From NCBI GenBank assembly GCA_030390025.1, contig JASTWF010000088.1, positions 1,178,001-1,242,000 on the forward strand: a stretch of 64,000 nucleotides of DNA, read 5' to 3'. Below the pieces are notes generated by a model that worked only from the letters and a program-made list of their open reading frames with translations, made no database searches and was not told where the DNA came from. A program made the translations under genes and the position numbers. Within the stretch, counting starts at the first letter, position 1, and each line of letters starts with the position of its first letter. This document shows, in pieces, positions 42,001-62,609 of the stretch. This DNA comes from Squalus acanthias. Taxonomy: Eukaryota.

Positions 42001-45000
42001 TTGTGTTGATGTTGATTTCCAGGGGCTCTGTGTTGTGTTGTGTTGGGGTTGATTTCCAGGGGCTCTGTGTTGTGTTGTGTTGGGGTTGATTTCCAGGGGC
42101 TCTGTGTTGTGTTGTGTTGGGGTTGATTTCCAGGGGCTCTGTGTTGTGTTGTGTTGGGGTTGATTTCCAGGCTCTGTGTTGTGTTGTGTTGGGGTTGATT
42201 TCCAGGGGCTCTGTGTTGTGTTGGGGTTGATTTCCAGGGGCTCTGTGTTGTGTTGGGGTTGATTTCCAGGGGCTCTGTGTTGTGTTGTGTTGGGGTTGAT
42301 TTCCAGGGGCTCTCTGTGTTGTGTTGGGGTTGATTTCCAGGCTCTGTGTTGTGTTGTGTTGGGGTTGATTTCCAGGGGCTCCGTGTTGTGTCGGGGTTGA
42401 TTTCCAGGGGCTCTGTGTTGTGTTGTGTTGGGGTTGATTTCCAGGGGCTCTGTGTTGTGTTGTGTTGGGGTTGATTTCCATGGGGCTCTGTGTTGTGTTG
42501 TGTTGGGGTTTATTTCCAGGGGCTCTGTGTTGTGTTGGGGTTGATTTCCAGGGGCTCTGTGTTGTGTTGTGTTGGGGTTGATTTCCAGGGGCTCTGTGTT
42601 GTGTTGTGTTGGGGTTGATTTCCAGGGGCTCTGTGTTGTGTTGTGTTGGGGTTGATCTCCAGGGGCTCTGTGTTGTGTTGGGGTTGATTTCCAGGGGCTC
42701 TGTGTTGTGTTGTGTTGAGGTTGATTTCCAGGGGCTCTGTGTTGTGTTGGTGTTGATTTCCAGGGGCTCTGTGTTGTGTTGTGTTGGGGTTGATTTCCAG
42801 GGGCTCTGTGTTGTGTTGTGTTGGGGTTGATTTCCAGGGGCTCTGTGTTGTGTTGTGTTGGGGTTGATTTCCAGGGGCTCTGTGTTGTGTTGTGTTGGGA
42901 TTGATTTCCAGGGGCTCTGTGTTGTGTTGTGTTGGGGTTGATTTCCAGGGGCTCTGTGTTGTGTTGTGTTGGGGTTGATTTCCAGGGGCTCTGTGTTGTG
43001 TTGGGGTTGATTTCCAGGGGCTCTGTGTTGTGTTGTGTTGGGGTTGATTTCCAGGGGCTCTCTGTGTTGTGTTGGGGTTGATTTCCAGGGGCTCTGTGTT
43101 GTGTTGGGGTTGATTTCCAGGCTCTGTGTTGTGTTGTGTTGGGGTTGATTTCCAGGGGCTCTGTGTTGCGTTGTGTTGGGGTTGATTTCCAGGGGCTCTG
43201 TGTTGTGTTGTGTTGGGGTTGATTTCCAGGGGCTCTGTGTTGTGTTGTGTTGGTGTTGATTTCCAGGGGCTCTGTGTTGTGTTGTGTTGGGATTTATTTC
43301 CAGGGGCTCTGTGTTGTGTTGTGTTGGGGTTGATTTCCAGGGGCTCTGTGTTGTGTTGGGGTTGATTTCCAGGGGCTCTGTGTTGTGTTGGGGTTTATTT
43401 CCAGGGGCTCTGTGTTGTGTTGTGTTGTGTTGGGGTTGATTTCCAGGGGCTCTGTGTTGTGTTGTGTTGTGTTGGGGTTGATTTCCAGGGGCTCTGTGTT
43501 GTGTTGTGTTGTGTTGGGGTTGATTTCCAGGGGCTCTGTGTTGTGTTGTGTTGGGGTTGATTTCCAGGGGCTCTGTGTTGTGTTGTGTTGGGGTTGATTT
43601 CCAGGGGCTCTGTGTTGTGTTGTGTTGGGGTTGATTTCCAGGGGCTCTGTGTTGTGTTGTGTTTATTTCCAGGGGCTCTGTGTTGTGTTGTGTTGTGTTG
43701 GGGTTTATTTCCAGGGGCTCTGTGTTGTGTTGTGTTGGGGTTGATTTCCAGGTGCTCTGTGTTGTGTTGTGTTGGGGTTGATTTCCAGGGGCTCTGTGTT
43801 GTGTTGGGGTTGATTTCCAGGGTCTCTGTGTTGTGTTGGGGTTGATTTCCAGGGTCTCCGTGTTGTGTTGGGGTTGATTTCCAGGGGCTCTGTGTTGTGT
43901 TGTGTTGGGGTTGATTTCCAGGGGCTCTCTGTGTTGTGTTGGGGTTGATTTCCAGGGGCTCTGTGTTGTGTTGTGTCGGGGTTGATTTCCAGGGGCTCTG
44001 TGTTGTGTTGTGTTGGGGTTGATTTCCAGGGGCTCTGTGTTGTGTTGGGGTTGATTTCCAGGGGCTCTGTGTTGTGTTGTGTTGGGGTTGATTTCCAGGG
44101 GCTCTGTGTTGTGTTGGGGTTGATTTCCAGGGGCTCTATGTTGTGTTGTGTTGGGGTTGATTTCCAGGGGCTCTGTGTTGTGTCGGTGTTGATTTCCAGG
44201 GGCTCTGTGTTGTGTTGGGGTTGATTTCCAGGGGCTCTGTGTTGTGTTGTGTTGGGGTTGATTTCCAGGGGCTCTGTGTTGTGTTGGGGTTGATTTCCAG
44301 GGGCTCTGTGTTGTGTTGGGGTTGATTTCCAGGGGCTCTGTGTTGTGTTGTGTTGGGGTTGATTTCCAGGGGCTCTGTGTTGTGTTGTGTTTATTTCCAG
44401 GGGCTCTGTGTTGTGTTGTGTTGTGTTGGGGTTTATTTCCAGGGGCTCTGTGTTGTGTTGTGTTGGGGTTGATTTCCAGGTGCTCTGTGTTGTGTTGTGT
44501 TGGGGTTGATTTCCAGGGGCTCTGTGTTGTGTTGGGGTTGATTTCCAGGGTCTCTGTGTTGTGTTGGGGTTGATTTCCAGGGTCTCCGTGTTGTGTTGGG
44601 GTTGATTTCCAGGGGCTCTGTGTTGTGTTGTGTTGGGGTTGATTTCCAGGGGCTCTCTGTGTTGTGTTGGGGTTGATTTCCAGGGGCTCTGTGTTGTGTT
44701 GTGTCGGGGTTGATTTCCAGGGGCTCTGTGTTGTGTTGTGTTGGGGTTGATTTCCAGGGGCTCTGTGTTGTGTTGGGGTTGATTTCCAGGGGCTCTGTGT
44801 TGTGTTGTGTTGGGGTTGATTTCCAGGGGCTCTGTGTTGTGTTGGGGTTGATTTCCAGGGGCTCTATGTTGTGTTGTGTTGGGGTTGATTTCCAGGGGCT
44901 CTGTGTTGTGTCGGTGTTGATTTCCAGGGGCTCTGTGTTGTGTTGGGGTTGATTTCCAGGGGCTCTGTGTTGTGTTGTGTTGGGGTTGATTTCCAGGGGC

Positions 45001-48000
45001 TCTGTGTTGTGTTGTGTTGGGGTTGATTTCCAGGGGCTCTGTGTTGTGTTGGGGTTGATTTCCAGGGGCTCTGTGTTGTGTTGGGGTTGATTTCCAGGGG
45101 CTCTGTGTTGTGTTGTGTTGGGGTTGATTTCCAGGGGCTCGGTGTTGTGTTGAGTTGGGGTTGATTTCCAGGGGCTCTGTGTTGTGTTGTGTTGGGGTTG
45201 ATTTCCAGGGGCTCTGTGTTGTGTTGGGGTTGATTTCCAGGGGCTCTGTTGTGTTGGGGGTTATTTCCAGGGGCTCTGTGTTGTGTTGTGTTGGGGTTGA
45301 TTTCCAGGGGCTCTGTGTTGTGTTGTGTTGGGGTTGATTTCCAGGGGCTCTGTGTTGTGTTGGGGTTGATTTCCAGGGGCTCTGTGTTGTGTTGGGGTTG
45401 ATTTCCAGGGGCTCTGTGTTGTGTTGGGGTTGATTTCCAGGGGCTCTGTGTTGTGTTGTGTTGGGGTTGATTTCCAGGGGCTCTGTGTTGTGTTGGGGTT
45501 GATTTCCAGGGGCTCTGTGTTGTGTTGTGTTGGGGGTTGATTTCCAGGGGCTCTGTGTTGTGTTGTGTTGGGGTTGATTTCCAGGGGCTCTGTGTTGTGT
45601 TGGGGTTGATTTCCAGGGGCTCTGTGTTGTGTTGTGTTGGGGTTGATTTCCAGGGGCTCTGTGTTGTGTTGGGGTTGATTTCCAGGGGCTCTGTGTTGTG
45701 TTGGGGTTGATTTCCAGGGGCTCTGTGTTGTGTTGGGGTTGATTTCCAGGGGCTCTGTGTTGTGTTGTGTTGGGGTTGATTTCCAGGGGCTCTGTGTTGT
45801 GTTGGGGTTGATTTCCAGGGGCTCTGTGTTGTGTTGTGTTGGGGGTTGATTTCCAGGGGCTCTGTGTTGTGTTGTGTTGGGGTTGATTTCCAGGGGCTCT
45901 GTGTTGTGTTGGGGTTGATTTCCAGGGGCTCTGTGTTGTGTTGTGTTGGGGTTGATTTCCAGGGGCTCTGTGTTGTGTTGTGTTGGGGTTGATTTCCAGG
46001 GGCTCTGTGTTGTGTTGGGGTTGAGTTCCAGGGGCTCTGTGTTGTGTTGTGTTGGGGTTGATTTCCAGGGGCTCTGTGTTGTGTTGGGGTTGATTTCCAG
46101 GGGCTCTGTGTTGTGTTGTGTTGGGGTTGATTTCCAGGGGCTCTGTGTTGTGTTGTGTTGTGTTGGGGTTGATTTCCAGGGCTCTGTGTTGTGTTGGGGT
46201 TGATTTCCAGGGGCTCTGTGTTGTGTTGTGTTGGGATTTATTTCCAGGGGCTCTGTGTTGTGTTGCAGTTGATTTCCAGGGGCTCTGTGTTGTGTTGTGT
46301 TGGGGTTGATTTCCAGGGGCTCTGTGTTGTGTTGTGTTGGGGTTGATTTCCAGGGGCTCTGTGTTGTGTTGTGTTTGGGTTGATTTCCAGGGGCTCTGTG
46401 TTGTGTTGTGTTGGGGTTGATTTCCAGGGGCTCTGTGTTGTGTTGTGTCGGGGTTGATTTCCAGGGGCTCTGTGTTGTGTTGGGGTTGATTTCCAGGGGC
46501 TCTGTGTTGTGTTGTGTTGGGGTTGATTTCCAGGGGCTCTGTGTTGTTTTGGGGGTTGATTTCCAGGGGCTCTGTGTTGTGTTGTGTTGGGGTTGATTTC
46601 CAGGGGCTCGGTGTTGTGTTGGGGTTGATTTCCAGGGGCTCTGTGTTGTGTTGGGGTTGATTTCCAAGGGCTCTGTGTTGTGTTGTGTTGGGGTTGATTT
46701 CCAGGGGCTCTGTGTTGTGTTGTGTTGGGATTTATTTCCAGGGGCTCTGTGTTGTGTTGTGTTGGGGTTGATTTCCAGGGGCTCTGTGTTGTGTTGGGGT
46801 TGATTTCCAGGGGCTCTGTGTTGTGTTGGGGTTTATTTCCAGGGGCTCTGTGTTGTGTTGTGTTGGGGTTGATTTCCAGGGGCTCTGTGTTGTGTTGTGT
46901 TGGGGTTGATTTCCAGGGGCTCTGTGTTGTGTTGTGTTTGGGTTGATTTCCAGGGGCTCTGTGTTGTGTTGTGTTGGGGTTGATTTCCAGGGGCTCTGTG
47001 TTGTGTTGTGTCGGGGTTGATTTCCAGGGGCTCTGTGTTGTGTTGGGGTTGATTTCCAGGGGCTCTGTGTTGTGTTGTGTTGGGGTTGATTTCCAGGGGC
47101 TCTGTGTTGTTTTGGGGGTTGATTTCCAGGGGCTCTGTGTTGTGTTGTGTTGGGGTTGATTTCCAGGGGCTCGGTGTTGTGTTGGGGTTGATTTCCAGGG
47201 GCTCTGTGTTGTGTTGGGGTTGATTTCCAAGGGCTCTGTGTTGTGTTGTGTTGGGGTTGATTTCCAGGGGCTCTGTGTTGTGTTGTGTTGGGATTTATTT
47301 CCAGGGGCTCTGTGTTGTGTTGTGTTGGGGTTGATTTCCAGGGGCTCTGTGTTGTGTTGGGGTTGATTTCCAGGGGCTCTGTGTTGTGTTGGGGTTTATT
47401 TCCAGGGGCTCTGTGTTGTGTTGTGTTGTGTTGGGGTTGATTTCCAGGGGCTCTGTGTTGTGTTGTGTTGTGTTGGGGTTGATTTCCAGGGGCTCTGTGT
47501 TGTGTTGTGTTGTGTTGGGGTTGATTTCCAGGGGCTCTGTGTTGTGTTGTGTTGGGGTTGATTTCCAGGGGCTCTGTGTTGTGTTGTGTTTATTTCCAGG
47601 GGCTCTGTGTTGTGTTGTGTTGTGTTGGGGTTTATTTCCAGGGGCTCTGTGTTGTGTTGTGTTGGGGTTGATTTCCAGGTGCTCTGTGTTGTGTTGTGTT
47701 GGGGTTGATTTCCAGGGGCTCTGTGTTGTGTTGGGGTTGATTTCCAGGGTCTCTGAGTTGTGTTGGGGTTGATTTCCAGGGTCTCCGTGTTGTGTTGGGG
47801 TTGATTTCCAGGGGCTCTGTGTTGTGTTGTGTTGGGGTTGATTTCCAGGGGCTCTCTGTGTTGTGTTGGGGTTGATTTCCAGGGGCTCTGTGTTGTGTTG
47901 TGTCGGGGTTGATTTCCAGGGGCTCTGTGTTGTGTTGTGTTGGGGTTGATTTCCAGGGGCTCTGTGTTGTGTTGGGGTTGATTTCCAGGGGCTCTGTGTT

Positions 48001-51000
48001 GTGTTGTGTTGGGGTTGATTTCCAGGGGCTCTGTGTTGTGTTGGGGTTGATTTCCAGGGGCTCTATCTTGTGTTGTGTTGGGGTTGATTTCCAGGGGCTC
48101 TGTGTTGTGTCGGTGTTGATTTCCAGGGGCTCTGTGTTGTGTTGGGGTTGATTTCCAGGGGCTCTGTGTTGTGTTGTGTTGGGGTTGATTTCCAGGGGCT
48201 CTGTGTTGTGTTGTGTTGGGGTTGATTTCCAGGGGCTCTGTGTTGTGTTGGGGTTGATTTCCAGGGGCTCTGTGTTGTGTTGGGGTTGATTTCCAGGGGC
48301 TCTGTGTTGTGTTGTGTTGGGGTTGATTTCCAGGGGCTCGGTGTTGTGTTGTGTTGGGGTTGATTTCCAGGGGCTCTGTGTTGTGTTGTGTTGGGGTTGA
48401 TTTCCAGGGGCTCTGTGTTGTGTTGGGGTTGATTTCCAGGGGCTCTGTTGTGTTGGGGGTTATTTCCAGGGGCTCTGTGTTGTGTTGTGTTGGGGTTGAT
48501 TTCCAGGGGCTCTGTGTTGTGTTGTGTTGGGGTTGATTTCCAGGGGCTCTGTGTTGTGTTGGGATTTATTTCCAGGGCTCTGTGTTGTGTTGCAGTTGAT
48601 TTCCAGGGGCTCTGTGTTGTGTTGTGTTGGGGTTGATTTCCAGGGGCTCTGTGTTGTGTTGTGTTGGGGTTGATTTCCAGGGGCTCTGTGTTGTGTTGTG
48701 TTGGGGTTGATTTCCAGGGGCTCTGTGTTGTGTTGGGGTTGATTTCCAGGGGCTCTGTGTTGTGTTGGGGTTGATTTCCAGGGGCTCTGTGTTGTGTTGT
48801 GTTGGGGTTGATTTCCAGGGGCTCTGTGTTGTGTTGGGGTTGATTTCCAGGGGCTCTGTGTTGTGTTGTGTTGGGGGTTGATTTCCAGGGGCTCTGTGTT
48901 GTGTTGTGTTGGGGTTGATTTCCAGGGGCTCTGTGTTGTGTTGGGGTTGATTTCCAGGGGCTCTGTGTTGTGTTGTGTTGGGGTTGATTTCCAGGGGCTC
49001 TGTGTTGTGTTGTGTTGGGGTTGATTTCCAGGGGCTCTGTGTTGTGTTGGGGTTGATTTCCAGGGGCTCTGTGATGTGTTGTGTTGGGGTTGATTTCCAA
49101 GGGCTCTGTGTTGTGTTGGGGTTGATTTCCAGGGGCTCTATGTTGTGTTGTGTTGGGGTTGATTTCCAGGGGCTCTGTGTTGTGTTGTGTTGGGGTTGAT
49201 TTCCAGGGGCTCTGTGTTGTGTTGTGTTGGGGTTGATTTCCAGGGGCTCTGTGTTGTGTTGGGCTTGATTTCCAGGGGCTCTGTGTTGTGTTGGGGTTGA
49301 TTTCCAGGGGCTCTGTGTTGTGTTTTGTTGGGGTTGATTTCCAGGGGCTCTGTGTTGTGTTGTGTTGGGGTTGATTTCCAGGGGCTCTGTGTTGTGTTGT
49401 GTCGGGGTTGATTTCCAGGGGCTCTGGGTTGTGTTGTTTTGGGGGTTATTTCCAGGGGCTCTGTGTTGTGTTGGGGTTGATTTCCAGGGTCTCTGTGTTG
49501 TGTTGGGGTTGATTTTCAGGGGCTCTGTGTTGTGTTGTGTTGGGCTTGATTTCCAGGGGCTCTGTGTTGTGTTGGGGTTGATTTCCAGGGGCTCTGTGTT
49601 GTGTTGGGGGTGATTTCCAGGGGCTCTGTGTTGTGTTGGGGTTGATTTCCAGGGGCTCTGTGTTGTGTTGTGTTGGGGTTGATTTCCAGGGGCTCTGTGT
49701 TGTGTTGTGTTGGGGGTTATTTCCAGGGGCTCTGTGTTGTGTTGGGCTTGATTTCCAGGGGCTCTGTGTTGTGTTGGGGTTGCTTTCCAGGGGCTCTGTG
49801 TTGTGTTGTGTTGGGGTTGATTTCCAGGGGCTCTGTGTTGTGTTGTGTTGGGGTTTATTTCCAGTGGCTCTGTGTTGTGTTGGGGTTGATTTCCAGGAGC
49901 TCTGTGTTGTGTCGGGGTTGATTTCCAGGGGCCCTGTGTTGTGTTGTGTTGGGGTTGATTTCCAGGGGCTCTGTGTTGTGTTGGGGTTGATTTCCAGGGG
50001 CTCTGTGTTGTGTTGTGTTGGGGTTGATTTCCAGGGTCTCTGTGTTGTGTTGGGGTTGATTTCCAGGGTCTCTGTGTTGTGTTGGGGTTGATTTCCAGGG
50101 GCTCTGTGTTGTGTTGTGTTGGGGTTGATTTCCAGGGGCTCTGTGTTGTGTTGTGTTGGGGTTGATTTCCAGGGGCTCTGTGTTGTGTTGTGTTGGGGTT
50201 GATCTCCAGGGGCTCTGTGTTGTGTTGGGGTTGATTTCCAGGGGCTCTGTGTTGTGTTGTGTTGAGGTTGATTTCCAGGGGCTCTGTGTTGTGTTGGTGT
50301 TGATTTCCAGGGGCTCTGTGTTGTGTTGGGGTTGATTTCCAGGGGCTCTGTGTTGTGTTGTGTTGGGGTTGATTTCCAGGGGCTCTGTGTTGTGTTGTGT
50401 TGGGGTTGATTTCCAGGGGCTCTGTGTTGTGTTGTGTTGGGATTGATTTCCAGGGGCTCTGTGTTGTGTTGTGTTGGGGTTGATTTCCAGGGGCTCTGTG
50501 TTGTGTTGTGTTGGGGTTGATTTCCAGGGGCTCTGTGTTGTGTTGGGGTTGATTTCCAGGGGCTCTGTGTTGTGTTGTGTTGGGGTTGATTTCCAGGGGC
50601 TCTCTGTGTTGTGTTGGGGTTGATTTCCAGGGGCTCTGTGTTGTGTTGGGGTTGATTTCCAGGCTCTGTGTTGTGTTGTGTTGGGGTTGATTTCCAGGGG
50701 CTCTGTGTTGCGTTGTGTTGGGGTTGATTTCCAGGGGCTCTGTGTTGTGTTGTGTTGGGGTTGATTTCCAGGGGCTCTGTGTTGTGTTGTGTTGGTGTTG
50801 ATTTCCAGGGGCTCTGTGTTGTGTTGTGTTGATGTTGATTTCCAGGGGCTCTGTGTTGTGTTGTGTTGGGGTTGATTTCCAGGGGCTCTGTGTTGTGTTG
50901 TGTTGGGGTTGATTTCCAGGGGCTCTGTGTTGTGTTGTGTTGGGGTTGATTTCCAGGGGCTCTGTGTTGTGTTGTGTTGGGGTTGATTTCCAGGCTCTGT

Positions 51001-52850
51001 GTTGTGTTGTGTTGGGGTTGATTTCCAGGGGCTCTGTGTTGTGTTGGGGTTGATTTCCAGGGGCTCTGTGTTGTGTTGGGGTTGATTTCCAGGGGCTCTG
51101 TGTTGTGTTGTGTTGGGGTTGATTTCCAGGGGCTCTCTGTGTTGTGTTGGGGTTGATTTCCAGGCTCTGTGTTGTGTTGTGTTGGGGTTGATTTCCAGGG
51201 GCTCCGTGTTGTGTCGGGGTTGATTTCCAGGGGCTCTGTGTTGTGTTGTGTTGGGGTTGATTTCCAGGGGCTCTGTGTTGTGTTGTGTTGGGGTTGATTT
51301 CCATGGGGCTCTGTGTTGTGTTGTGTTGGGGTTTATTTCCAGGGGCTCTGTGTTGTGTTGGGGTTGATTTCCAGGGGCTCTGTGTTGTGTTGTGTTGGGG
51401 TTGATTTCCAGGGGCTCTGTGTTGTGTTGTGTTGGGGTTGATTTCCAGGGGCTCTGTGTTGTGTTGTGTTGGGGTTGATCTCCAGGGGCTCTGTGTTGTG
51501 TTGGGGTTGATTTCCAGGGGCTCTGTGTTGTGTTGTGTTGAGGTTGATTTCCAGGGGCTCTGTGTTGTGTTGGTGTTGATTTCCAGGGGCTCTGTGTTGT
51601 GTTGTGTTGGGGTTGATTTCCAGGGGCTCTGTGTTGTGTTGTGTTGGGGTTGATTTCCAGGGGCTCTGTGTTGTGTTGTGTTGGGGTTGATTTCCAGGGG
51701 CTCTGTGTTGTGTTGTGTTGGGATTGATTTCCAGGGGCTCTGTGTTGTGTTGTGTTGGGGTTGATTTCCAGGGGCTCTGTGTTGTGTTGTGTTGGGGTTG
51801 ATTTCCAGGGGCTCTGTGTTGTGTTGGGGTTGATTTCCAGGGGCTCTGTGTTGTGTTGTGTTGGGGTTGATTTCCAGGGGCTCTCTGTGTTGTGTTGGGG
51901 TTGATTTCCAGGGGCTCTGTGTTGTGTTGGGGTTGATTTCCAGGCTCTGTGTTGTGTTGTGTTGGGGTTGATTTCCAGGGGCTCTGTGTTGCGTTGTGTT
52001 GGGGTTGATTTCCAGGGGCTCTGTGTTGTGTTGTGTTGGGGTTGATTTCCAGGGGCTCTGTGTTGTGTTGTGTTGGTGTTGATTTCCAGGGGCTCTGTGT
52101 TGTGTTGTGTTGATGTTGATTTCCAGGGCCTCTGTGTTGTGTTGTGTTGGGGTTGATTTCCAGGGGCTCTGTGTTGTGTTGTGTTGGGGTTTATTTCCAG
52201 GGGCTCTGTGTTGTGTTGTGTTGGGGTTGATTTCCAGGGGCTCTGTGTTGTGTTGTGTTGGGGTTGATTTCCAGGGGCTCTGTGTTGTGTTGTGTTGGGG
52301 TTGATTTCCAGGGGCTCTGTGTTGTGTTGTGTTGGGGTTGATTTCCAGGGGCTCTGTGTTGTGTTGTGTTGGGGTTGATTTCCAGGCTCTGTGTTGTGTT
52401 GTGTTGGGGTTGATTTCCAGGGGCTCTGTGTTGTGTTGGGGTTGATTTCCAGGGGCTCTGTGTTGTGTTGGGGTTGATTTCCAGGGGCTCTGTGTTGTGT
52501 TGTGTTGGGGTTGATTTCCAGGGGCTCTCTGTGTTGTGTTGGGGTTGATTTCCAGGGGCTCTGTGTTGTGTTGGGGTTGATTTCCAGGCTCTGTGTTGTG
52601 TTGTGTTGGGGTTGATTTCCAGGGGCTCCGTGTTGTGTCGGGGTTGATTTCCAGGGGCTCTGTGTTGTGTTGTGTTGGGGTTGATTTCCAGGGGCTCTGT
52701 GTTGTGTTGTGTTGGGGTTGATTTCCATGGGGCTCTGTGTTGTGTTGTGTTGGGGTTTATTTCCAGGGGCTCTGTGTTGTGTTGTGTTGGGGTTGATTTC
52801 CAGGGGCTCTGTGTTGTGTTGTGTTGGGGTTGATTTCCAGGGGTTCTGTG
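1..52850 (+). repeat. Giant tandem minisatellite/satellite array, unit 32 bp (GTTGGGGTTGATTTCCAGGGGCTCTGTGTTGT) with 37- and 42-bp variants from extra GTTGT; about 1,500 copies; open at the left window edge
   Basis: The unit is read directly throughout. The 32-mer has 13 G, 13 T, 4 C and 2 A (81% G+T). The last recognisable unit ends at ~52843-52850 (TTTCCAGGGGTTCTGTG) and then decays into GT-rich intron sequence. Copy number is estimated as length divided by ~34.5 bp. Confidence 0.98.
35770..52110 (+). repeat. Higher-order tandem duplication inside the array: block A (~35770-43290) and block B (~43290-52110)
   Basis: Rare unit variants recur in identical order at fixed offsets. GTTGAGTTGGGG occurs at 36888 and 45153 (offset 8265) and CCAGGTGCTC at 38854 and 47677 (offset 8823). 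Identical ORF-track translations occur at 40151/48975, 40538/49362, 40809/49633 and 41329/50153 (offset 8824). Block B contains extra internal 728-bp (43750/44478) and 563-bp (46408/46971) duplications. Confidence 0.85.
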
Positions 52851-52914
52851 TGTGGATTTGGGGTTTTTGTGTGTGTATATGTGTGTGTGTGGTTGGTGGT
52901 TTGGGGTTCATATC

Positions 52915-52936
52915 CTAATACCTATCTTTGTTTCAG
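52915..52936 (+). promoter_or_regulatory. Branch point, polypyrimidine tract and 3' splice acceptor of the alpha1 exon
   Basis: CTAAT (YTNAY) at 52915-52919 is followed by ACCTATCTTTGTTTCAG, with the AG at 52935-52936 directly before GC TCT CAC TCT CTC (G-S-H-S-L). Confidence 0.75.
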
Positions 52937-53194
52937 GCTCTCACTCTCTCCGGTATTTCTACACCTCGATGACCCCCATGCACGGCCTGCTGGAATTTGT
53001 GGTGGTCGGTTATGTGGACGACGCTCCGTTTGTTCAGTATGACAGTGACCGGAAGCGGATGATCCCGCGGCAGCGGTGGATGGAGAGCGAGGCCCCTGAG
53101 TACTGGGAGCAGCAGACATGGGCCACGCAGCGATGGGAGGAGAGGGGCAAGAATGATCTTGACATTCTCATGTCCCGGACCAACCAGACGGACG
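52937..53194 (+). CDS. MHC class I alpha1 domain exon (exon 2), 258 bp
   Basis: Boundaries are tttcAG|GC and GAC G|GTGAGT. Translation: (G)SHSLRYFYTSMTPMHGLLEFVVVGYVDDAPFVQYDSDRKRMIPRQRWMESEAPEYWEQQTWATQRWEERGKNDLDILMSRTNQTD. Conserved Y7, Y59, R84 and the N86 glycan site NQT (HLA numbering, by-eye alignment). Confidence 0.96.
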
Positions 53195-53427
53195 GTGAGT
53201 CCTCGCCCTCCCTGTGTCTTTCTCACCGCAGCCCCCATCTGTTTATTCCCTCCCCCACCCACCCACCGGAAATCAGGCAGTCAAAATAGCACCTGCATTT
53301 GCCCACACTGATCTCTCTACCCCGCGGGTCACGGTCTTTACCTGGTATTCTGAGCCGCCGAGAGGGGCGCTCGCTGGAAACCGCAGTGGGGTATGTGGTG
53401 GGGCGTGGTGCAGTCCTTTCCGAGGAG

Positions 53428-53896
53428 CCCTTTAAATACACTGATTGGGGTCCGGGGGCCCCTTTAAATACATTGATCGGGGTGCGGGGGGCCCTTTAAC
53501 AACACTGATCGAGGCCCGGAGGGGCCCTTTAAATACACTGATCGAGGTCCGGGGGGTCCCTTTAAATACATTGATCGGGGTGTGGGGCGCCCTTTAACAA
53601 CACTGATCGGGGTGCGGGGGTCCCTTTAAATACACTGATCAGGGTCCGGGGGGTCCCTTTAAATACACTGATCGAGGTCCAGAGGGTCCCTTTAAATACA
53701 CTGATCGGGGTCCGGGGGGGGTGGGGGGTCCTTTAAATACACTGATCGGGGTCTGGGGGGTCCCTTTAAATACACTGATCGGGGTCCGGTGGGTCCCTTT
53801 AAATACACTGATCGGGGTCCAGGGGGGGGTGGGGGGGTCCTTTAAATACACTGATCGGGGTCCGGTGGGTCCCTTTTAAATACACTGATTGGGGTC
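53428..53896 (+). repeat. Intron-2 minisatellite, ~14 copies of ~32-33 bp (CCCTTTAAATACACTGATCGGGGTCCGGGGGGT)
   Basis: The TTTAAATACACTGAT core recurs at ~53431, 53463, 53495, 53528, 53561, 53593, 53625, 53658, 53691, 53732, 53765, 53798, 53841 and 53875. Confidence 0.93.
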
Positions 53897-53995
53897 AAAA
53901 GTAGCCGGAACTGCCCATCGTCCCCGCAGATTTCCCATCCTACCCTACCTCCCCCTCCCTCATGGCCTTCGCCCGTCTCCGGGGGGGTCTAATTT

Positions 53996-54098
53996 GCTGT
54001 GTGTGTTACAATGACAGCTGTGGGTGGGCGGGTCCTCTCTGCGGCAGGAACTGATTCGCTGTGTGTGTTACAATGACAGCTGAGGGTCGGCGGGGTCT
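53996..54098 (+). repeat. Short direct repeat (2 copies, period 62 bp; GCTGTGTGTGTTACAATGACAGCTG core)
   Basis: An identical 25-mer starts at 53996 and 54058. The second copy is abutted by a CR1 3' tail. Confidence 0.75.
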
Positions 54099-54835: not shown

Positions 54836-55695
54836 CCAGCTATTCACAATATATATTAATGATCTAGACGAGGGAACTAGATGTAATATCTCTAAGTTTG
54901 CAGACGACACAAAGCTGGGTGGGCGTGTGTGCTGTGAGGAGGATGCAGAGAAACTCCAGTCTGATTTGAACAGGTTGGGTGATTGGGCAGATGCATGGCA
55001 GATGCAGTATAATGTTATCCACTTTGGTGGCAAAAACAGGAAGACAGATTATTATCTGAACGGCAATAGATTGGGAAAAGTGGAAGTGCAACGAGATCTG
55101 GGAGTCCTTGTGCACCAGTCACTGAAGGTAAGCATGCAGGTGCAGCAGGCGGTTAAGAAGGCAAATGGTATGTTGGCCTTCATAGCGAGAGGATTTGAGT
55201 ACAGGAGCAAGGATGTCTTGCTGCAGTTGTACAAGGCCTTGGTGAGACCACACCTTGAGTATTGTGTGCAGTTTTACTAGACTGATACCTGGGATGGCAG
55301 GAATGACATATGAAGAGAGATCTCATTGAAACTTATAAAATTCTAACAGGACTAGACAGACTAGATGCAGGAAGGATGTTCCCGATGGCGGGGGAGTCCA
55401 GAACCAGAGGTCACAGTCTAAGGATAAGGGGTAAGCCATTTAGGACTGAGATGAGGAGGAATTTCTTCACCCAGAGAGTGGTGAACCTGTGGAATTCTCT
55501 ACCACAGAAGGCAGTTGAGGCCAATTCATTAAATATATTCAAGAAGGAGATAGATATATTTCTTAAGGCTAAAGGGATATGGGGAGAAAGCAGGGACAGG
55601 GTATTGAATTTGGATGATCAGCCATGATCTCATTAAATGGCGGAGCAGGCTCGAGGGCCGAATGGCCTACTCCTGCTCCTATCTTCTATGTTTCT
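54836..55695 (+). mobile_element. CR1 LINE element B, 5'-truncated, inserted into element A
   Basis: Translations include QLFTIYINDLDEG, SKFADDTKLGG, RDLGVLVH and RVVNLWNSLP. The 3' UTR ends GGCCGAATGGCCTACTCCTGCTCCTATCTTCTATGTTTCT. It is flanked by ATAC on both sides (54832-54835 and 55696-55699) and has internal deletions near 55277-55320. Confidence 0.92.
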
Positions 55696-56663
55696 ATACT
55701 CTGCTTTTCTATTTTTCCCACCAAAGTGGATAACTTCACATTTCCCCACATTATATTCCATTTGCCATGTTCTTGCCCACTCACTTAACCTGTCTATATC
55801 CCCTTGAAGCCTCCTTGCATCCTCCTCACAACTTACGTTCCTACCCAGCTTTGTATCATCAGCAAACTTGGATATATTACATTTGGTCCCCTCATCCAAA
55901 TCATTGATGTAGATTGTGAATAGCTGAGGCCCAAGCACTGATCCTTGCGGTACCCCACTAGTTACAGCCTGCCAACCCGAAAATGACCCGTTTTTTCCTA
56001 CTCTCTGTTTTCTGTCCGTTAACCAATCCTCAATCCTTGCTAGTATATTACCCCCAATCCCATGAGCCCTAATTTTGTTTAATAACCTCTTGTGTGGCAC
56101 CTTATCGAATGCCTTCTGAAAATCCAAATGCACCACATTCACTGGTTCCCCCTTATCTATTCTGCTCGTTACAACCTCAAAAAACTCTAATAGATTTGTC
56201 AAACATGATTCCCCTTTCATAAATCCGTGTTGACTCTGCCCAATCCTATTATTATTTTTTAAGTGCCCTGTTCCCACGTCCTGAATAATAGATTCTAGCA
56301 TTTTCCCGACTACTGATGTCAGGCTAACTGGTCTGTAGTTCTCTGTTTTCTCTCTCCCTCCTTCCTTAAATAGTGGGGTTACATTTGCTACCTTCCAATC
56401 AGCGGGAACCGTTCTAGAATCTATGGAATTTTGGAAAATGACAACCAATGCATCCACTATCTCTATAGCCAACTCTTTCAAAACCCTAGGATGTAGGCCA
56501 TCAGGTCCAGGGGATTTATCGGCTTTCAGTCCCATTAATTTCTCCAGTACTACTTTTTTTACTTAGACAAATTTCTTTCAGTTCCTCATTCTCGCTAGAC
56601 CCTTGGTTCTCCACTATTTCCTGGAAGTTTTTTGCGTCGTCTTCCTTGAAGACAGACACAAAA
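55696..56663 (-). mobile_element. CR1 LINE element A, 5' part (reverse transcriptase domain), 5'-truncated
   Basis: The 300-aa minus-strand ORF contains KSPGPDGLHPRVLKE, NYRPVSLTS, DFQKAFDKVPH, GVPQGSVLGP and FADDTKL. It ends at NRKAEY, which continues as FLNGERL in the 54099-54835 fragment. Confidence 0.93.
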
Positions 56664-56669
56664 ATGGCG

Positions 56670-58210
56670 TGTAAACAGTAAGCGGGTAGTAAGAGGCGGG
56701 GTGGGGCCTATTACAGACAAAGAAGGTGATATATGCTTCGAGGTGCAGGGCAAGGCTCAAATACTCAATGAGTACTTTGTATCGGTGTTTACTAAGGAGA
56801 TGGATGCTGACAAAATATCGGTAAAAGTGGAAAAGGTAGAAGCAGTGGAAGGGGTGAAAATTGATAGACAGGATGTACTAGAAAGGCTGGGTATGCTTAG
56901 AGTGGACAAGTCGCCTGGTCCAGATGGCTTGCATCCCAGGTTGCTAAGGGAATTGGGGGAGGAGATAGCATTAGGGCTTGCCATAATTTTCCAATCTTCC
57001 CTAGATGCGGGGGAGGTGCCTGAGAATTGGAAAGTGGCAAATGTGACACCATTGTTCAAGAAAGGGTGTAAGGACAGTCCTAGTAACTACAGGCCGGTCA
57101 GTTTAACATCAGTGGTGGGTAAAGTTTTAGAAACAATAATCAAGGAAAAAATTAAAGGGCACTTGGAGAGGTTTAAGCTGATTAAGGAGAGCCAACACAG
57201 GTTTGAAAAAGGCAGGTCGTGTTTGACTAATCTAATTGAATTTTTTGATGAAGTAACAGGGAGGATTGATGAAGGGAATGCAGTGAATGTTGTCTACATG
57301 GATTTTCGGAAGGCGTTTGACAAAGTACCACATAGAAGGCTGGTTAACAAAATTGAGGTTCATGGAATAGGTGGGTCAGTGGCAGCTTGGATAAGGAATT
57401 GGCTTAAGGACAGAAAATAGCGAGTTGTGGTAAGTGGCTGTATTTCAAACTGGAGGATGGTAGACAGTGGTGTTCCCCAAGGGTCAGTGCTGGGGCCATT
57501 GCTTTTTTTGAGATATATAAATGACCTGGATATTGGAATACAGAGTAGAATTTCTAAATTTGCCGATGACACCAAACTTGGGGGTGTGGCAAACAGTGAG
57601 GATGATACCAATCGACTGCAACAAGACATAGAAAGGCTAGCAGAATGGGCAGACAAGTGGCAGATGGAATTTAATACAGACAAGTGTGAAGTGATGCATT
57701 TTGGCAGAAGGAACAGGGAGAGGCAATATACACTTAATGGCACAGTTTTAAAGAGTGTGCAGGGACAGAGGGATCTGGGAGTTAATGTACATAGGTCCCT
57801 GAAGGTGGCAGGACATATTTAGAGTGGTTAGCAAAGCATATGGGATCTTAGGCTTCATAAATAGAGGTATTGAGTACAAAAGTAGAGAAGTTATGCTGAA
57901 CCTTTATAAAGCGCTGGTTAGGCCACAACTGGAGTATTGCATCCAGTTCTGATCACCACACATTAGGAAGGATGTGAAGGCCCTTGAGAGGGTGCAGAGG
58001 AGATTTACCAGAATGGTTCCAGGGATGGGGGATCTTAGCTACAAGGTCAGGTTGGAGAAGCTGGATTTGTTTTCATTAGAGCAAAGGAGGTTGAGGGGTG
58101 ATTTGATGGAGGTATACAAGATTATGACGGGTTTGGATAGGCTAGACGGGGAAAGGCTGTTCCCACTAGTTGATGGTACAAGGACTAGGACTAGGGGATA
58201 CAGATTTAAG
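56670..58210 (+). mobile_element. CR1 LINE element C, ORF2 (RT) fragment, truncated at both ends and decayed
   Basis: Translations include VGPI, YFVSVFT, KSPGPDGLHPRLL, NYRPVSLTS, DFRKAFDKVPH, GVPQGSVLGP, FADDTKL and RRLRGDLMEVYKI. There is a premature TAG at 57418-57420 and a frameshift near 57820. Confidence 0.92.
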
Positions 58211-58224
58211 ACAGGTACCTCTAC

Positions 58225-58393: not shown

Positions 58394-58483
58394 GGATGGG
58401 CTATGTGTGTTATATTCACTGCCCAGGTTTGGTGGGGTCTCAGTGAGACAGGATTTGATTGGCTGTGTGGGTTTGATTGACAG

Positions 58484-58756
58484 GGATCCACACGTTCCAG
58501 GTGATGTACGGCTGTGAGCTGCGGGATGACGGCTCCACCGCCGGGTTCTATCAACGTGGCTGGGATGGGAAGGACCTGATCAGCTTTGACAAGGAGCGGC
58601 TGGTGTGGGTCACCCCGGTAACATGGGCAGAGGACTCCAAGCGCAAGTGGGACCAGGACAGTGCCGGACTCCAGCAGGACAAGGGTTACCTGGAGCAGGA
58701 GTGCATCGATTGGCTGAAGAAATACCTGAGGGCTGGAGAGAGAGAACTGAAACCCG
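58484..58756 (+). CDS. MHC class I alpha2 domain exon (exon 3), 273 bp
   Basis: Boundaries are gacAG|GG and CCC G|GTGAGT. Translation: GIHTFQVMYGCELRDDGSTAGFYQRGWDGKDLISFDKERLVWVTPVTWAEDSKRKWDQDSAGLQQDKGYLEQECIDWLKKYLRAGERELKP. The C101-C164 pair, K146, W147, Y159, W167 and Y171 are conserved. Confidence 0.96.
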
Positions 58757-58764
58757 GTGAGTGT

Positions 58765-61700
58765 GAGTGAGAGGGGAGAGAGAGAGAGTGGAGAGAGTGA
58801 GGGGGGACTGAGAGTGGGTGAGTGAGGGGGGACTGAGAGTGGGTGAGTGAGGGGGGACTGAGAGTGGGTGAGTGAGGGGGACTGAGAGTGGGTGAGTGAG
58901 GGGGGACTGAGAGTGGGTGAGTGAGGGGGGGACTGAGAGTGAGGGGGGGACTGAGAGTGGGTGAGTGAGGGGGTACTGAGAGTGGGTGAGTGAGGGGGGA
59001 CTGAGAGTGAGGGGGGACTGAGAGTGGGTGAGTGAGGGGGGACTGAGAGTGGGTGAGTGAGGGGGGACTGAGAGTGGGTGAGTGAGGGGGGACTGAGAGT
59101 GGGTGAGTGAGGGGGGACTGAGAGTGAGGGGGGACTGAGAGTGGGTGAGTGAGGGGGGACTGAGAGTGGGTGAGTGAGGGGGGACTGAGAGTGGGTGAGT
59201 GAGGGGGGACTGAGAGTGGGTGAGTGAGGGGGGACTGAGAGTGGGTGAGTGAGGGGGGACTGAGAGTGGGTGAGGGGGACTGAGAGTGGGTGAGTGAGGG
59301 GGGACTGAGAGTGGGTGAGTGAGGGGGGACTGAGAGTGAGGGGGGACTGAGAGTGGGTGAGTGAGGGGGGACTGAGAGTGGGTGAGTGAGGGGGGACTGA
59401 GAGTGGGTGAGTGAGGGGGGACTGAGAGTGGGTGAGTGAGGGGGGACTGAGAGTGGGTGAGTGAGGGGGGACTGAGAGTGGGTGAGGGGGACTGAGAGTG
59501 GGTGAGTGAGGGGGGACTGAGAGTGGGTGAGTGAGGGGGGACTGAGAGTGGGTGAGGGGGGACTGAGAGTGGGTGAGGGGGGACTGAGAGTGGGTGAGGG
59601 GGGACTGAGAGTGGGTGAGGGGGACTGAGAGTGGGTGAGTGAGGGGGGACTGAGAGTGGGTGAGTGAGGGAGGACTGAGAGTGGGTGAGTGAGGGGGGAC
59701 TGAGAGTGGGTGAGTGAGGGGGGACTGAGAGTGGGTGAGTGAGGGGGGACTGAGAGTGAGTGAGTGAGGGGGGACAGAGAGTGGGTGAGTGAAGGGGGAC
59801 TGAGAGTGGGTGAGTGAGGGGGGACTGAGAGTGGGTGAGTGATTGGGGGAGTGCGGGGGGACTGAGAGTGGGTGAGTGAGTGGGTGAGTGAGGGGGGACT
59901 GAGAGTGGGTGAGTGAGGGGGGACTGAGAGTGGGTGAGTGAGGGGGGACTGAGAGTGAGTGAGTGAGGGGGGACAGAGAGTGGGTGAGTGAAGGGGGACT
60001 GAGAGTGGGTGAGTGAGGGGGGACTGAGAGTGGGTGAGTGATTGGGGGAGTGCGGGGGGACTGAGAGTGGGTGAGTGAGTGGGGGAGTGAGGGGGGACTG
60101 AGAGTGGGTGAGTGAGGGGGGACTGAGAGTGAGTGAGTGAGGGGGGACAGAGAGTGGGTGAGTGAAGGGGGACTGAGAGTGGGTGAGTGAGGGGGGACTG
60201 AGAGTGGGTGAGTGATTGGGGGAGTGCGGGGGGACTGAGAGTGGGTGAGTGAGTGGGTGAGTGAGGGGGGACTGAGAGTGGGTGAGTGAGGGGGGACTGA
60301 GAGTGGGTGAGTGAGGGGGGACTGAGAGTGAGTGAGTGAGGGGGGACAGAGAGTGGGTGAGTGAAGGGGGACTGAGAGTGGGTGAGTGAGGGGGGACTGA
60401 GAGTGGGTGAGTGATTGGGGGAGTGCGGGGGGACTGAGAGTGGGTGAGTGAGTGGGGGAGTGAGGGGGGACTGAGAGTGGGTGAGTGAGGGGGGACTGAG
60501 AGTGAGTGAGTGAGGGGGGACAGAGAGTGGGTGAGTGAAGGGGGACTGAGAGTGGGTGAGTGAGGGGGGACTGAGAGTGGGTGAGTGATTGGGGGAGTGC
60601 GGGGGGACTGAGAGTGGGTGAGTGAGGGGGGACTGAGAGTGAGTGAGTGAGGGGGGACAGAGAGTGGGTGAGTGAAGGGGGACTGAGAGTGGGTGAGTGA
60701 GGGGGGACTGAGAGTGGGTGAGTGATTGGGGGAGTGCGGGGGGACTGAGAGTGGGTGAGTGAGTGGGGGAGTGAGGGGGGACTGAGAGTGGGTGAGTGAG
60801 GGGGGACTGAGAGTCGGTGAGTGAGGGGGACTGAGAGTGGGTGAGTGAGGGGACAGAGTGGGTGAGTGAGGGGGGACTGAGAGTGGGTGAGTGAGGGGGG
60901 GACTGAGAGTGGGTGAGTGAGGGGGGGACTGAGAGTGGGTGAGTGAGGGGGGACTGAGAGTGGGTGAGTGAGGGGGGGACTGAGTGGGTGAGTGAGGGGG
61001 GACTGAGCGTGGGTGAGTGAGGGGGGACTGAGCGTGGGTGAGTGAGGGGGGACTGAGAGTGGGTGAGTGAGGGGGGACTGAGAGTGGGTGAGTGAGGGGG
61101 GACTGAGTGGGTGTGTGAGGGGGGACTGAGTGGGTGTGTGAGGGGGGACTGAGTGGGTGAGTGAGGGGGGACTGAGAGTGGGTGAGTGAGGGGGGACTGT
61201 GAGTGAGGGGGGACTGAAAGTGAGGGGGGACTGAGAGTGAGGGGGGACTGAGAGTGAGTGAGTGAGGGGGGACTGAGAGTGAGTGAGTGAGGGGGGACTG
61301 AGAGTGGGTGAGTGAGGGGGACTGAGAGTGGGTGAGTGAGGGGGGACTGAGAGTGAGGGGGGACTGAGAGTGGGTGAGTGAGGGGGGACTGAGAGTGGGT
61401 GAGTGAGGGGGACTGAGAGTGGGTGAGTGAGGGGGGACTGAGAGTGAGGGGGGACTGAGAGTGGGTGAGTGAGGGGGGACTGAGAGTGGGTGAGTGAGGG
61501 GGGACTGAGAGTGGGTGAGTGAGGGGGGACTGAGAGTGAGTGAGTGAGGGGGGACTGAGAGTGGGTGAGTGAGGGGGGGATTGAGAGTCGGTGAGTGAGG
61601 GGGGACTGAGAGTGAGTGAGTGAGGGGGGACTGAGAGTGGGTGAGTGAGGGGGGACTGAGAGTGGGTGAGTGAGGGGGGACTGAGAGTGAGGGGGGACTG

Positions 61701-62113
61701 AGAGTCGGTGAGTGAGGGGGGACTGAGAGTGAGTGAGTGAGGGGGGACTGAGAGTGGGTGAGTGAGGGGGGGATTGAGAGTCGGTGAGTGAGGGGGGACT
61801 GAGAGTGAGTGAGGGGGGACTGAGAGTGGGTGAGTGAGGGGGACTGAGAGTGGGTGAGTGAGGGGGGACTGAGAGTGAGGGGGGACTGAGAGTGGGTGAG
61901 TGAGGGGGGACTGAGAGTGGGTGAGTGAGGGGGGACTGGGAGTGGGTGAGTGAGGGGGGACTGAGAGTGGGTGAGTGAGGGGGGACTGAGAGTTGGTGAG
62001 TGAGGGGGGACTGAGAGTGGGTGAGTGAGGGGGGACTGAGAGTGGGTGAGTGAGGGGGGACTGAGAGTGAGGGGGGACTGAGAGTTGGTGAGTGAGGGGG
62101 GGATTGAGAGTCG
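58765..62113 (+). repeat. Intron-3 purine/G-rich minisatellite, 25-bp unit GAGAGTGGGTGAGTGAGGGGGGACT (17- and 21-bp deletion variants), about 135 copies
   Basis: The unit is read directly. The array begins immediately after the exon-3 donor and fills ~3.35 kb of the 3.58-kb intron. Confidence 0.97.
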
Positions 62114-62119
62114 GCTTTG

Positions 62120-62295
62120 TAATCCCCAGTTTAAAGGGGGATGTACTGTTCCCCGGGGTCGGATTCTAATCCCCAGATTAAAGGGGTATGTACCGTTCCC
62201 CGGGGTCAGGGTCTAATCCCCAGTTTAAAGGGGTATGTACTGTTCCCCGGGGTCAGGGTCTAATCCCAAGTTTAAAGGGGGATGTACTGTTCCCG
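62120..62295 (+). repeat. 47-bp tandem repeat, ~3.7 copies (TAATCCCCAGTTTAAAGGGGTATGTACTGTTCCCCGGGGTCAGGGTC)
   Basis: TAATCCC starts at 62120, 62167, 62214 and 62261. The repeat ends ~40 bp before the alpha3 acceptor. Confidence 0.9.
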
Positions 62296-62335: not shown

Positions 62336-62609
62336 TTGCTCCTCGAGTGTTTCCTTCTGTGAACAAGGCCTCTAATATTAGACTGACCGAACTCTCCTGC
62401 CTCGTCACGGGCTTTTACCCTCGCGATATTGAAGTCACCCTCCTGAGAAATGGCCAGCCGATCACGGACACGGAATCCACTGGCATCCTGCCCAACCACG
62501 ATGGCACCTACCAGCTCACGAGATGGGCTCAGATCGCGAGATGATGGAGCCACCTACTCCTGTCGGTATGATCAGGGCGACAAAGCAGGACCGGAGATCC
62601 GAGACTGGG
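62336..62609 (+). CDS. MHC class I alpha3 (C1-set Ig) exon (exon 4), 274 bp, frameshifted near 62539
   Basis: Boundaries are ctcAG|TT and TGG G|GTAAGA. Frame 1 gives VAPRVFPSVNKASNIRLTELSCLVTGFYPRDIEVTLLRNGQPITDTESTGILPNHDGTYQLTRWAQIAR*. The Ig sequence continues in another frame as DDGATYSCRYDQGDKAGPEIRDW. Confidence 0.9.

What the first reader, a model, noticed from the sequence alone, without database searches (positions are those of the whole stretch)
52801..52945. The giant array's unit looks like an amplified copy of the adjacent 3' splice-site region, giving ~1,500 acceptor-like TTTCCAG|G motifs
Seen: unit TTGATTTCCAG|GGGCTCT resembles the true junction TTGTTTCAG|GCTCT, and a recurrent unit variant reads TTTCCAG|GCTCT. 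Unit TTGGGGTTGATTTCC also matches TTGGGGTTCATATCC at 52901-52915 (13/15 identical), which abuts the putative branch point. The only AG in the consensus unit is in YAG|G context, and TTGAT fits YTNAY. Inference: the array was seeded locally from the intron 3' end, so the pre-mRNA would present a very large field of decoy acceptors that must be skipped.
Basis: partly seen in the sequence, partly recalled or inferred. Interest (0 to 1): 0.7.

Follow-up and report, generated by a model that had tools for sequence, protein, structure and literature searches.

The report
Giant minisatellite beside shark MHC exon
A 53-kb repeat array just upstream of a shark MHC class I exon carries about 1,500 splice-acceptor-like motifs, but it resembles the neighbouring real acceptor only marginally, the motifs are predicted to be silent, and the gene copy has a frameshift, so it is most likely an unusually long but ordinary intronic minisatellite.

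Summary
The counts hold. The array (1-52851, 32/37-bp units) has 1,485 TTTCCAG|G among 1,550 AG and ends 85 nt before the alpha1 acceptor (52935-6) of a dogfish-type MHC class I gene. 'Amplified copy of the acceptor' is not shown. With AGs in register the unit matches the true site at 14 of 37 positions, the same as the alpha3 acceptor (14) and fewer than alpha2 (19). The 13/15 match is real but 19 nt out of register, so a copy would lack the branch point and pyrimidine tract. Shuffle p-values are 0.015-0.40; one tailored joint test gives 0.002-0.024, and a tailored test for alpha2 gives 0.009-0.019. The TTTCCAG|GCTCT variant is 9 units, partly block-duplicated. Decoys are likely silent: no GTRAG in the array, none gives an exon under 350 nt, their AG is predicted paired (0.07 unpaired vs 0.52), and 1,549 of 1,550 would frameshift or stop. 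The alpha3 exon is 2 nt short, with a stop. Interest 0.25.

The parts
1..52851 (+). Minisatellite of 32/37-bp G/T-rich units (differing by one TGTGT/TGTTG block), open at the left end of the window; one TTTCCAG|G per unit; no GTRAG
38007..52081 (+). Block duplication inside the array: 38007-43258 repeated at 46835-52081 (offset about 8.8 kb), 125 of 129 unit codes identical; explains 3 of the 9 CAG|GCTCT units
52839..52840 (+). Last array AG; the only decoy whose use keeps the frame without a stop (+96 nt, 354-nt exon)
52852..52900 (+). TG/G-rich spacer with no AG; low-complexity sequence related in composition to the unit
52901..52915 (+). 13/15 match to the unit (TTGGGGTTCATATCC), 19 nt out of register with the true AG
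52915..52919 (+). Putative branch point CTAAT (A at 52918, position -19); inferred from consensus only
52920..52936 (+). Pyrimidine tract and true acceptor AG (52935-52936); 13 of 18 upstream bases are pyrimidines; 94-nt AG-free zone
52937..53194 (+). MHC class I alpha1 exon (258 nt), donor G|GTGAGT at 53195
53428..53896 (+). 33-bp minisatellite, about 12 copies, intron 2
55633..57822 (.). Reverse-transcriptase (RVT_1) fragments on both strands in intron 2, retroelement debris
58464..58485 (+). alpha2 acceptor, G/T-rich and pyrimidine-poor (9/18); matches the intron-1 unit 15/18 with the AG in register
58484..58756 (+). MHC class I alpha2 exon (273 nt), donor G|GTGAGT at 58757
58784..62111 (+). 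25-bp minisatellite, about 132 copies, starting 27 nt after the alpha2 donor; 102 G|GTGAGT donor-like motifs
62120..62294 (+). 47-bp tandem repeat, 3.7 copies, ending 41 nt before the alpha3 exon
62336..62609 (+). MHC class I alpha3 exon, 274 nt against 276 expected; frame change near 62536-62541 and TGA at 62542-62544, before the second Ig cysteine

Best explanation
A minisatellite of at least 52.8 kb (32/37-bp G/T-rich units) ends 85 nt before the alpha1 exon of a shark MHC class I gene; it likely grew from the G/T-rich intron tract beside it rather than from the acceptor itself, and its roughly 1,500 TTTCCAG|G motifs are predicted to be ignored in splicing. Steps: (1) Shown: one short unit with a single CAG|G was multiplied, partly by kilobase block duplications. 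One acceptor-like motif therefore became about 1,500; this is one event, not 1,500. (2) Inferred: the seed was the low-complexity tract at 52852-52915, or that tract is decayed terminal units. (3) Inferred from exon definition (recalled: Robberson, Cote and Berget): an acceptor in a long vertebrate intron needs a donor within about 300 nt. The array has no GTRAG, and even the nearest decoy would make a 354-nt exon against 258 nt for the true site. (4) Predicted: each unit's UUUCCAG pairs with UUGGGG of the same or a neighbouring unit, hiding the AG, while the true site is open. (5) Shown by translation: 1,549 of 1,550 decoys would shift the frame or meet a stop, so rare errors would likely be removed by nonsense-mediated decay. 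(6) Inferred: this copy is probably a pseudogene (alpha3 frameshift), so relaxed selection may have let the array grow.
For: In-register identity to the true acceptor is 14/37, equal to the alpha3 control; the alpha2 acceptor gives 19/37. Acceptor core vs unit: p = 0.14-0.15. The best flank match is the upstream G/T tract, not the junction. GTRAG is found 0 times in 52,851 nt. Decoys giving exons of at most 350 nt: 0 of 1,550; at most 500 nt: 3. Predicted unpaired probability in 150 randomly sampled TTTCCAG sites: 0.23 +/- 0.12 at -12..-1 and 0.07 +/- 0.05 at the AG. True alpha1 site: 0.63 and 0.52; alpha2: 0.72 and 0.91; 164 intron-2 YAGs: 0.44 and 0.42. The real unit is more paired than 197 of 200 units with the non-core part shuffled. 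Frame outcomes. Block duplications. All three introns carry their own minisatellites, so repeat birth near exons is habitual in this gene. alpha3 is 274 nt vs 276 expected, with a frame change. Mirage repeats with AG/GT signals were reported not to interfere with splicing (PMC3087553, section read), and F7 pseudo-donors normally stay silent (PMC1557585, abstract and introduction).
Against: A tailored joint test (13/15 match plus run-collapsed match around the AG) gives p = 0.002 (mono) and 0.024 (dinucleotide) for the alpha1 site. The two matches are colinear, and 20 of 24 unit columns align with a 19-nt and a 2-nt gap. All 9 CAG|GCTCT units lie in the exon-proximal fifth of the array. By primary sequence the unit is no weaker than the gene's own alpha2 acceptor (10 vs 9 pyrimidines of 18; 7 G each; TTGAT at -8 in both), so the decoys are not intrinsically dead. 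The true alpha3 AG is also predicted paired (0.09), so pairing alone does not separate real from decoy sites. The 261-nt junction region folds no better than shuffles (z -0.86). The frameshift could be an assembly error; the left half of the array shows an error-like indel excess.
Confidence: 0.6

Rival explanations
1. Diverged giant 'mirage': the unit descends from a duplication of the alpha1 intron-exon boundary that lost the 19 nt holding the branch point and pyrimidine tract and gained two Gs. It was then homogenised, while the authentic boundary stayed apart.
For: Colinear alignment, 20 of 24 unit columns with a 19-nt and a 2-nt gap. Joint tailored p 0.002/0.024. CAG|GCTCT variants are confined to the proximal end. 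Mirage boundaries are reported to escape homogenisation (PMC3087553).
Against: That gapped alignment scores p = 0.04-0.19 under its own scoring (51-nt window). Each half alone is p = 0.14-0.19 and 0.01-0.11 in unit shuffles. The alpha2 acceptor reaches p = 0.009/0.019 with a statistic tailored to it and p = 0.006 by plain local alignment. No unit spans the boundary. Described mirage units are 81-100% identical to one another; in-register identity to the authentic boundary here is 38%.
Confidence: 0.25
2. The unit came from elsewhere (another satellite, a retroelement, or an alpha2-type acceptor of a class I paralog), and all resemblance to the alpha1 site is chance in G/T-rich DNA.
For: The alpha2 acceptor matches 15/18 with the AG in register. 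Spacer similarity is only p = 0.04-0.40 in the 94-nt window. 19-22% of shuffled units have YAG|G.
Against: The adjacent tract is still the top flank match. No source was found: no match in phage records, no Rfam family. No eukaryotic DNA collection was available to search.
Confidence: 0.1
3. The array is a selected splicing or expression regulator of a working class I gene, with repeat length tuning exon-2 inclusion as in the ABCA7 VNTR.
For: ABCA7 VNTR length changes isoform levels (PMC5954066, passages). Thousands of human tandem repeats are associated with splicing (PMC10078293, listing and passages). The unit is dense in UG and G runs (204 TG/kb, 56 GGG+ runs/kb).
Against: alpha3 frameshift and stop. 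No expression data. No conservation could be shown.
Confidence: 0.05

Closest known systems
'Mirages': minisatellite-like duplications of exon-intron boundaries in amphioxus Adh3 and globin BflGb6/BflGb9 (PMC3087553; section 16 read)
   Same: Tandem units beside an exon carrying AG splice signals. Splicing was reported as unaffected.
   Different: BflGb6 has 3-6 units of 150-160 bp, 81-100% identical to one another and spanning the boundary. Here there are about 1,500 units of 32/37 bp ending 85 nt short of the boundary, with 14/37 in-register identity to it.
Boundary-spanning human VNTRs: F7 IVS7 37-bp, interferon-inducible 6-16, CBS IVS13, LMNB2, PDGF (PMC1557585; abstract and introduction read)
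   Same: Minisatellite reiterating a splice-site motif; pseudo-sites mostly silent, only the nearest one or two ever used.
   Different: Those repeat the donor exactly, with the first monomer spanning the junction, in about 5-25 copies. This array is on the acceptor side, inexact, and about 60-fold larger. The intron-3 array here (102 G|GTGAGT) is the closer analogue.
ABCA7 intron-18 25-bp VNTR (PMC5954066; passages read)
   Same: Long intronic VNTR flanking an exon (12 to about 427 units) whose unit carries a splice motif; use of a pseudo-site shifts the frame.
   Different: Donor side, includes the true donor, with length-dependent effects measured. Nothing is measured here, and this array is at least 5 times longer than the longest allele reported.
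Satellite-filled gigantic introns of Drosophila Y genes kl-3/kl-5 (PMC6508621 listing only; PMC11207136 and PMC12965833 passages)
   Same: A gene would have to be transcribed through a very long tandem-repeat intron.
   Different: Those are megabase satellites in essential, expressed genes, suggested to be spliced recursively. Here there is no AG|GTRAG recursive site (0 GTRAG), and expression is unknown.
Shark MHC class I heavy chain: Squalus acanthias Q8HWH7; nurse shark structure 6LUP
   Same: alpha3 98% identical over 66-67 residues to Q8HWH7; alpha2 80%; 6LUP is the best PDB hit for alpha1 and alpha2.
   Different: alpha1 is only 63% identical and one residue shorter; alpha3 is frameshifted. 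Lineage (classical UAA or nonclassical) was not resolved.

Membership tests
Mirage / boundary-spanning minisatellite | Tandem array adjoining an exon-intron boundary | tested here: met
   Array ends at 52851, 85 nt before the exon at 52937; near, not contiguous
Mirage / boundary-spanning minisatellite | Terminal monomer spans the authentic exon-intron junction | tested here: not met
   TRF ends the array at 52851; 85 nt of non-unit sequence intervene
Mirage / boundary-spanning minisatellite | Units reiterate the authentic splice-site sequence at high identity | tested here: not met
   14/37 in register, 7/23 over -20..+3; alpha3 control 14/37 and 9/23
Mirage / boundary-spanning minisatellite | Units carry an AG or GT splice signal | tested here: met
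   1,485 TTTCCAG|G among 1,550 AG
Mirage / boundary-spanning minisatellite | Descent of the unit from the boundary (remote homology) | tested here: inconclusive
   p = 0.015-0.40; tailored joint p 0.002/0.024, alpha2 control 0.009/0.019
Minisatellite / VNTR | Head-to-tail units of roughly 10-100 bp (size range recalled) with interspersed variant units | tested here: met
   37- and 32-bp modal units, 89% matches; 185-190 unit types
Minisatellite / VNTR | Copy number varies between alleles | not testable with these tools
   Single sequence; internal block duplications show turnover but not allelic variation
Recursive-splicing (ratchet) intron | AG|GTRAG sites preceded by a pyrimidine tract (definition recalled) | tested here: not met
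   0 GTRAG; 15 AGGT, none followed by RAG
Splicing-associated tandem repeat (ABCA7 type) | Repeat length or units change isoform output | not testable with these tools
   No RNA data or splice predictor available
MHC class I heavy-chain gene | alpha1, alpha2 and alpha3 exons in order with phase-1 GT-AG introns | tested here: met
   Pfam MHC_I and C1-set above cut-off; tblastn map
MHC class I heavy-chain gene | Intact reading frame | tested here: not met
   alpha3 274 vs 276 nt, frame change and TGA at 62542; a sequencing error is not excluded
MHC class I heavy-chain gene | Leader exon upstream, making the array intronic | tested here: inconclusive
   No separate leader exon found by tblastn in the window; the array runs off the left end

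The most novel reading that the evidence does not exclude
The array is a giant acceptor-side mirage: a copy of the alpha1 boundary that lost its branch point and pyrimidine tract, folds over its own AG, and could therefore expand to more than 1,500 self-masked decoys. It is mirrored by a donor-side array of 102 perfect G|GTGAGT motifs in intron 3 of the same gene. If the gene is transcribed and spliced correctly, it would be a natural extreme test of exon definition against both decoy types, far beyond the 3 to about 427 copies in the cases read here.
Probability: 0.15. Interest if true: 0.55.

Novelty: new member of a known kind. Interest (0 to 1): 0.25.

Why it matters
If the modest reading holds, it matters little. 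It is one more intronic minisatellite, notable for size (at least 52.8 kb) and as a hazard for assembling and annotating shark MHC class I loci. If the array proves to descend from the acceptor and the gene is expressed, it would extend the mirage/F7 class to the acceptor side at about 1,500 copies. It would also suggest a rule that splice-site repeats can expand only when they disarm themselves (lost branch point, paired AG, no partner donor). The locus offers a cheap minigene test of that rule for both acceptor and donor decoys.

Tried and rejected
(1) Exact or near-exact copy of the acceptor: rejected, 14/37 in register. (2) CAG|GCTCT variant as independent evidence: weak, 9 units, 3 of them block-duplicated copies. 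(3) Recursive splicing through the array: no GTRAG. The first-order expectation of 158 GTGAG is not a valid depletion test, because the array is one unit repeated. (4) Stable RNA structure at the junction: z -0.86; no Rfam family in 51500-64000. (5) G-quadruplex: weak for this array (G4Hunter-style mean 0.88, 12% of windows at 1.2 or more), strong for the intron-3 array (1.49, 98%). (6) External source: none in 50,697 phage records, a poor collection for a shark repeat. The bacterial and archaeal genome scan was not used, as it holds no sharks. No eukaryotic DNA could be searched, so paralog introns and genome-wide copies of the unit are unchecked. (7) MaxEntScan and SpliceAI were not available; only descriptive metrics were used. 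(8) The cluster membership of the closest proteins could not be looked up, so the class I lineage is left open. (9) Literature: ten searches listed no paper on a minisatellite in a shark class I intron; the library lacks most subscription papers. PMC10751288 (passages) has no occurrence of 'intron'. PMC12863176 (passages) has no tandem-repeat mention. No supplementary files were opened; those of shark MHC papers might hold intron sequences bearing on origin. (10) My first translation was in the wrong frame and was discarded. (11) The unit segmentation merged some variant units (1,398 anchors against about 1,500), so its counts are of segments.
Full report
CONTEXT. The first 52,851 bases are one tandem array (period 37, 1,518 copies, 89% matches), open at the left end. 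The modal units are 37 and 32 bp (505 and 374 of 1,431 segments). The last 11 kb hold three exons of a shark MHC class I gene. alpha1 is at 52937-53194 (best PDB hit 6LUP, E 6.7e-31), alpha2 at 58484-58756 and alpha3 at 62336-62609. alpha3 is 98% identical to Squalus acanthias Q8HWH7, alpha2 80% and alpha1 63%. alpha3 is 274 nt where 276 are expected; tblastn changes frame at about 62535 and a TGA follows at 62542-62544. As assembled, this copy cannot make a full heavy chain. No leader exon is in the window, so 'intron 1' is an inference.

OBSERVATION. The array has 1,550 AG, of which 1,485 are TTTCCAG|G. The 13/15 match at 52901-52915 is there and is the best ungapped 15-mer in the flank on both strands. 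CTAAT lies at 52915-52919 and the true AG at 52935-52936. The variant TTTCCAG|GCTCT is 9 of 1,446 scored units, all at or beyond 42164. Three of them are images of three others at offset 8,823, inside a block duplication with 125 of 129 identical unit codes. The units nearest the exon keep four Gs.

IS THE UNIT A COPY OF THE ACCEPTOR? With AGs aligned, identity is 14/37 for alpha1, 14/37 for alpha3 and 19/37 for alpha2; over -20..+3 it is 7, 9 and 15 of 23. The acceptor core (52917-52945) scores no better than shuffles (p 0.14-0.15). The 13/15 segment gives p 0.02 in 51 nt and 0.08 in 94 nt. The alpha2 acceptor gives p 0.006 in 51 nt (dinucleotide shuffles). Over five scorings, three nulls and two windows, alpha1 gave p 0.015-0.40, alpha2 0.003-0.11 and alpha3 0.24-0.96. 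A statistic built for alpha2 gives 0.009 and 0.019, which shows what post-hoc tailoring yields in G/T-rich DNA. Conclusion: kinship with the adjacent G/T tract is likely, with direction unknown (seed or decayed edge). Descent from the junction is possible but unproven.

ARE THEY DECOYS? At motif level, yes: YYYYYAG is 28.3/kb against 1.3/kb in intron 2. But YAG is 28.8 against 33.1/kb and AG is 29 against 68/kb. One unit with such a motif is not rare: 19-22% of shuffles have YAG|G and 2-3% have YYYYYAG|G. The unit is poorer than the true alpha1 site (10 vs 13 pyrimidines of 18; AG-free zone mostly 30-35 nt vs 94; YTNAY A at -8 or -40/-45 vs -19), but no poorer than the alpha2 acceptor (9 of 18). 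Primary sequence alone therefore does not silence it. Three things likely do. First, there is no donor partner: 0 GTRAG in the array, and 0 of 1,550 decoys give an exon of 350 nt or less with the 53195 donor, 3 give 500 nt or less. The roughly 300-nt exon-definition limit is recalled, not tested. Second, predicted pairing: in 150 sampled sites the AG is 0.07 unpaired and -12..-1 is 0.23, against 0.52 and 0.63 for alpha1 and 0.91 and 0.72 for alpha2. The real unit is more paired than 197 of 200 core-preserving shuffles. Against this, the true alpha3 AG is 0.09. Third, 1,549 of 1,550 uses would frameshift or stop; only 52839 keeps the frame, adding 32 residues. UG- and G-run-binding repressors (TDP-43, hnRNP H/F; recalled) could add to this, given 204 TG and 56 G runs per kb.

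ARRAY HISTORY AND QUALITY. Exact internal repeats reach 1,790 bp at offset 8,824, with others at 4.5, 5.6 and 8.3 kb, as expected from unequal exchange, though misassembly cannot be excluded. One-G deletions number 134 in 818 units left of 28,500 and 17 in 683 to the right. This abrupt change looks like uneven consensus accuracy, so array length and possibly the alpha3 frameshift need checking in reads. Every intron here has a minisatellite. The intron-3 array (25 bp, about 132 copies) begins 27 nt after the alpha2 donor and has 102 G|GTGAGT. It resembles the sequence just after the donor (p 0.012), but is only 14/25 in register (controls 12/25). It is the closer analogue of known cases.

COMPARISON. 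Amphioxus 'mirages' duplicate an intron 3' end plus exon start (3-6 units at BflGb6, 81-100% identical to one another) without reported harm to splicing (PMC3087553, section 16 read). F7, 6-16, CBS, LMNB2 and PDGF minisatellites reiterate donors that are silent or used only proximally (PMC1557585, abstract and introduction). The ABCA7 VNTR reaches about 427 units and alters splicing (PMC5954066, passages). This array works like them in presenting reiterated pseudo-sites. It fails two defining features, a monomer spanning the junction and close identity to it, so I do not file it as a mirage. Satellite-filled gigantic introns in Drosophila (listing and passages) show that far longer repeat introns can be transcribed. 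Ten literature searches listed nothing on this shark array.

VERDICT. Real array and real motifs; origin from the splice site is marginal (about 0.25); the decoys are likely silent by ordinary means; the host gene is probably broken. New member of a known kind. Interest 0.25. The bold reading (a self-masked giant mirage in an expressed gene) has probability 0.15 and would deserve 0.55.

Noticed in passing
window 58784-62111: 25-bp minisatellite directly after the alpha2 donor with 102 G|GTGAGT motifs identical to the true donor at -1..+6; first at +61 nt. G-rich, strong G-quadruplex score (mean 1.49). A better splice-site decoy field than the intron-1 array.
   Followed up: partly
window 62536-62544: alpha3 exon 2 nt short with a premature TGA, not in a homopolymer run; pseudogene or assembly error.
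   Followed up: partly
window 58448-58485: The alpha2 acceptor is G/T-rich and pyrimidine-poor, matches the intron-1 unit 15/18 with the AG in register, and ACAGG recurs 32 nt upstream, the period of the short unit (seen in the sequence). Unexplained; may be chance.
   Followed up: partly
window 52879-52936: The intron end is open in frame with exon 2 from an ATG at 52879, giving 19 mostly hydrophobic residues ending VS before GSHSLRY, which looks like a leader; tblastn extends the reference leader into it. Probably a by-product of T-richness; could mislead gene predictors.
   Followed up: no
window 1-28500: One-G deletions are about 6.5 times more frequent per unit than in the rest of the array, with an abrupt boundary near 28.5 kb; suggests lower consensus accuracy.
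   Followed up: partly
window 33267-52081: Nested block duplications in the array at offsets of 4.5, 5.6, 8.3 and 8.8 kb.
   Followed up: partly
window 52901-52918: Predicted 7-bp hairpin formed by the 13/15 segment and covering part of the branch-point motif; not significant against shuffles.
   Followed up: no
window 55633-57822: Reverse-transcriptase fragments on both strands in intron 2. The N-terminus of one annotated Heterodontus class I protein (P0009) matches this retroelement sequence, suggesting a misannotation in that record.
   Followed up: no
window 53428-53896 and 62120-62294: Two further small minisatellites (33 bp and 47 bp), so each intron of this gene carries a tandem repeat.
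   Followed up: no
window 52937-53194: alpha1 is one residue shorter than the six shark references aligned and far more diverged from Q8HWH7 (63%) than alpha3 is (98%).
   Followed up: no
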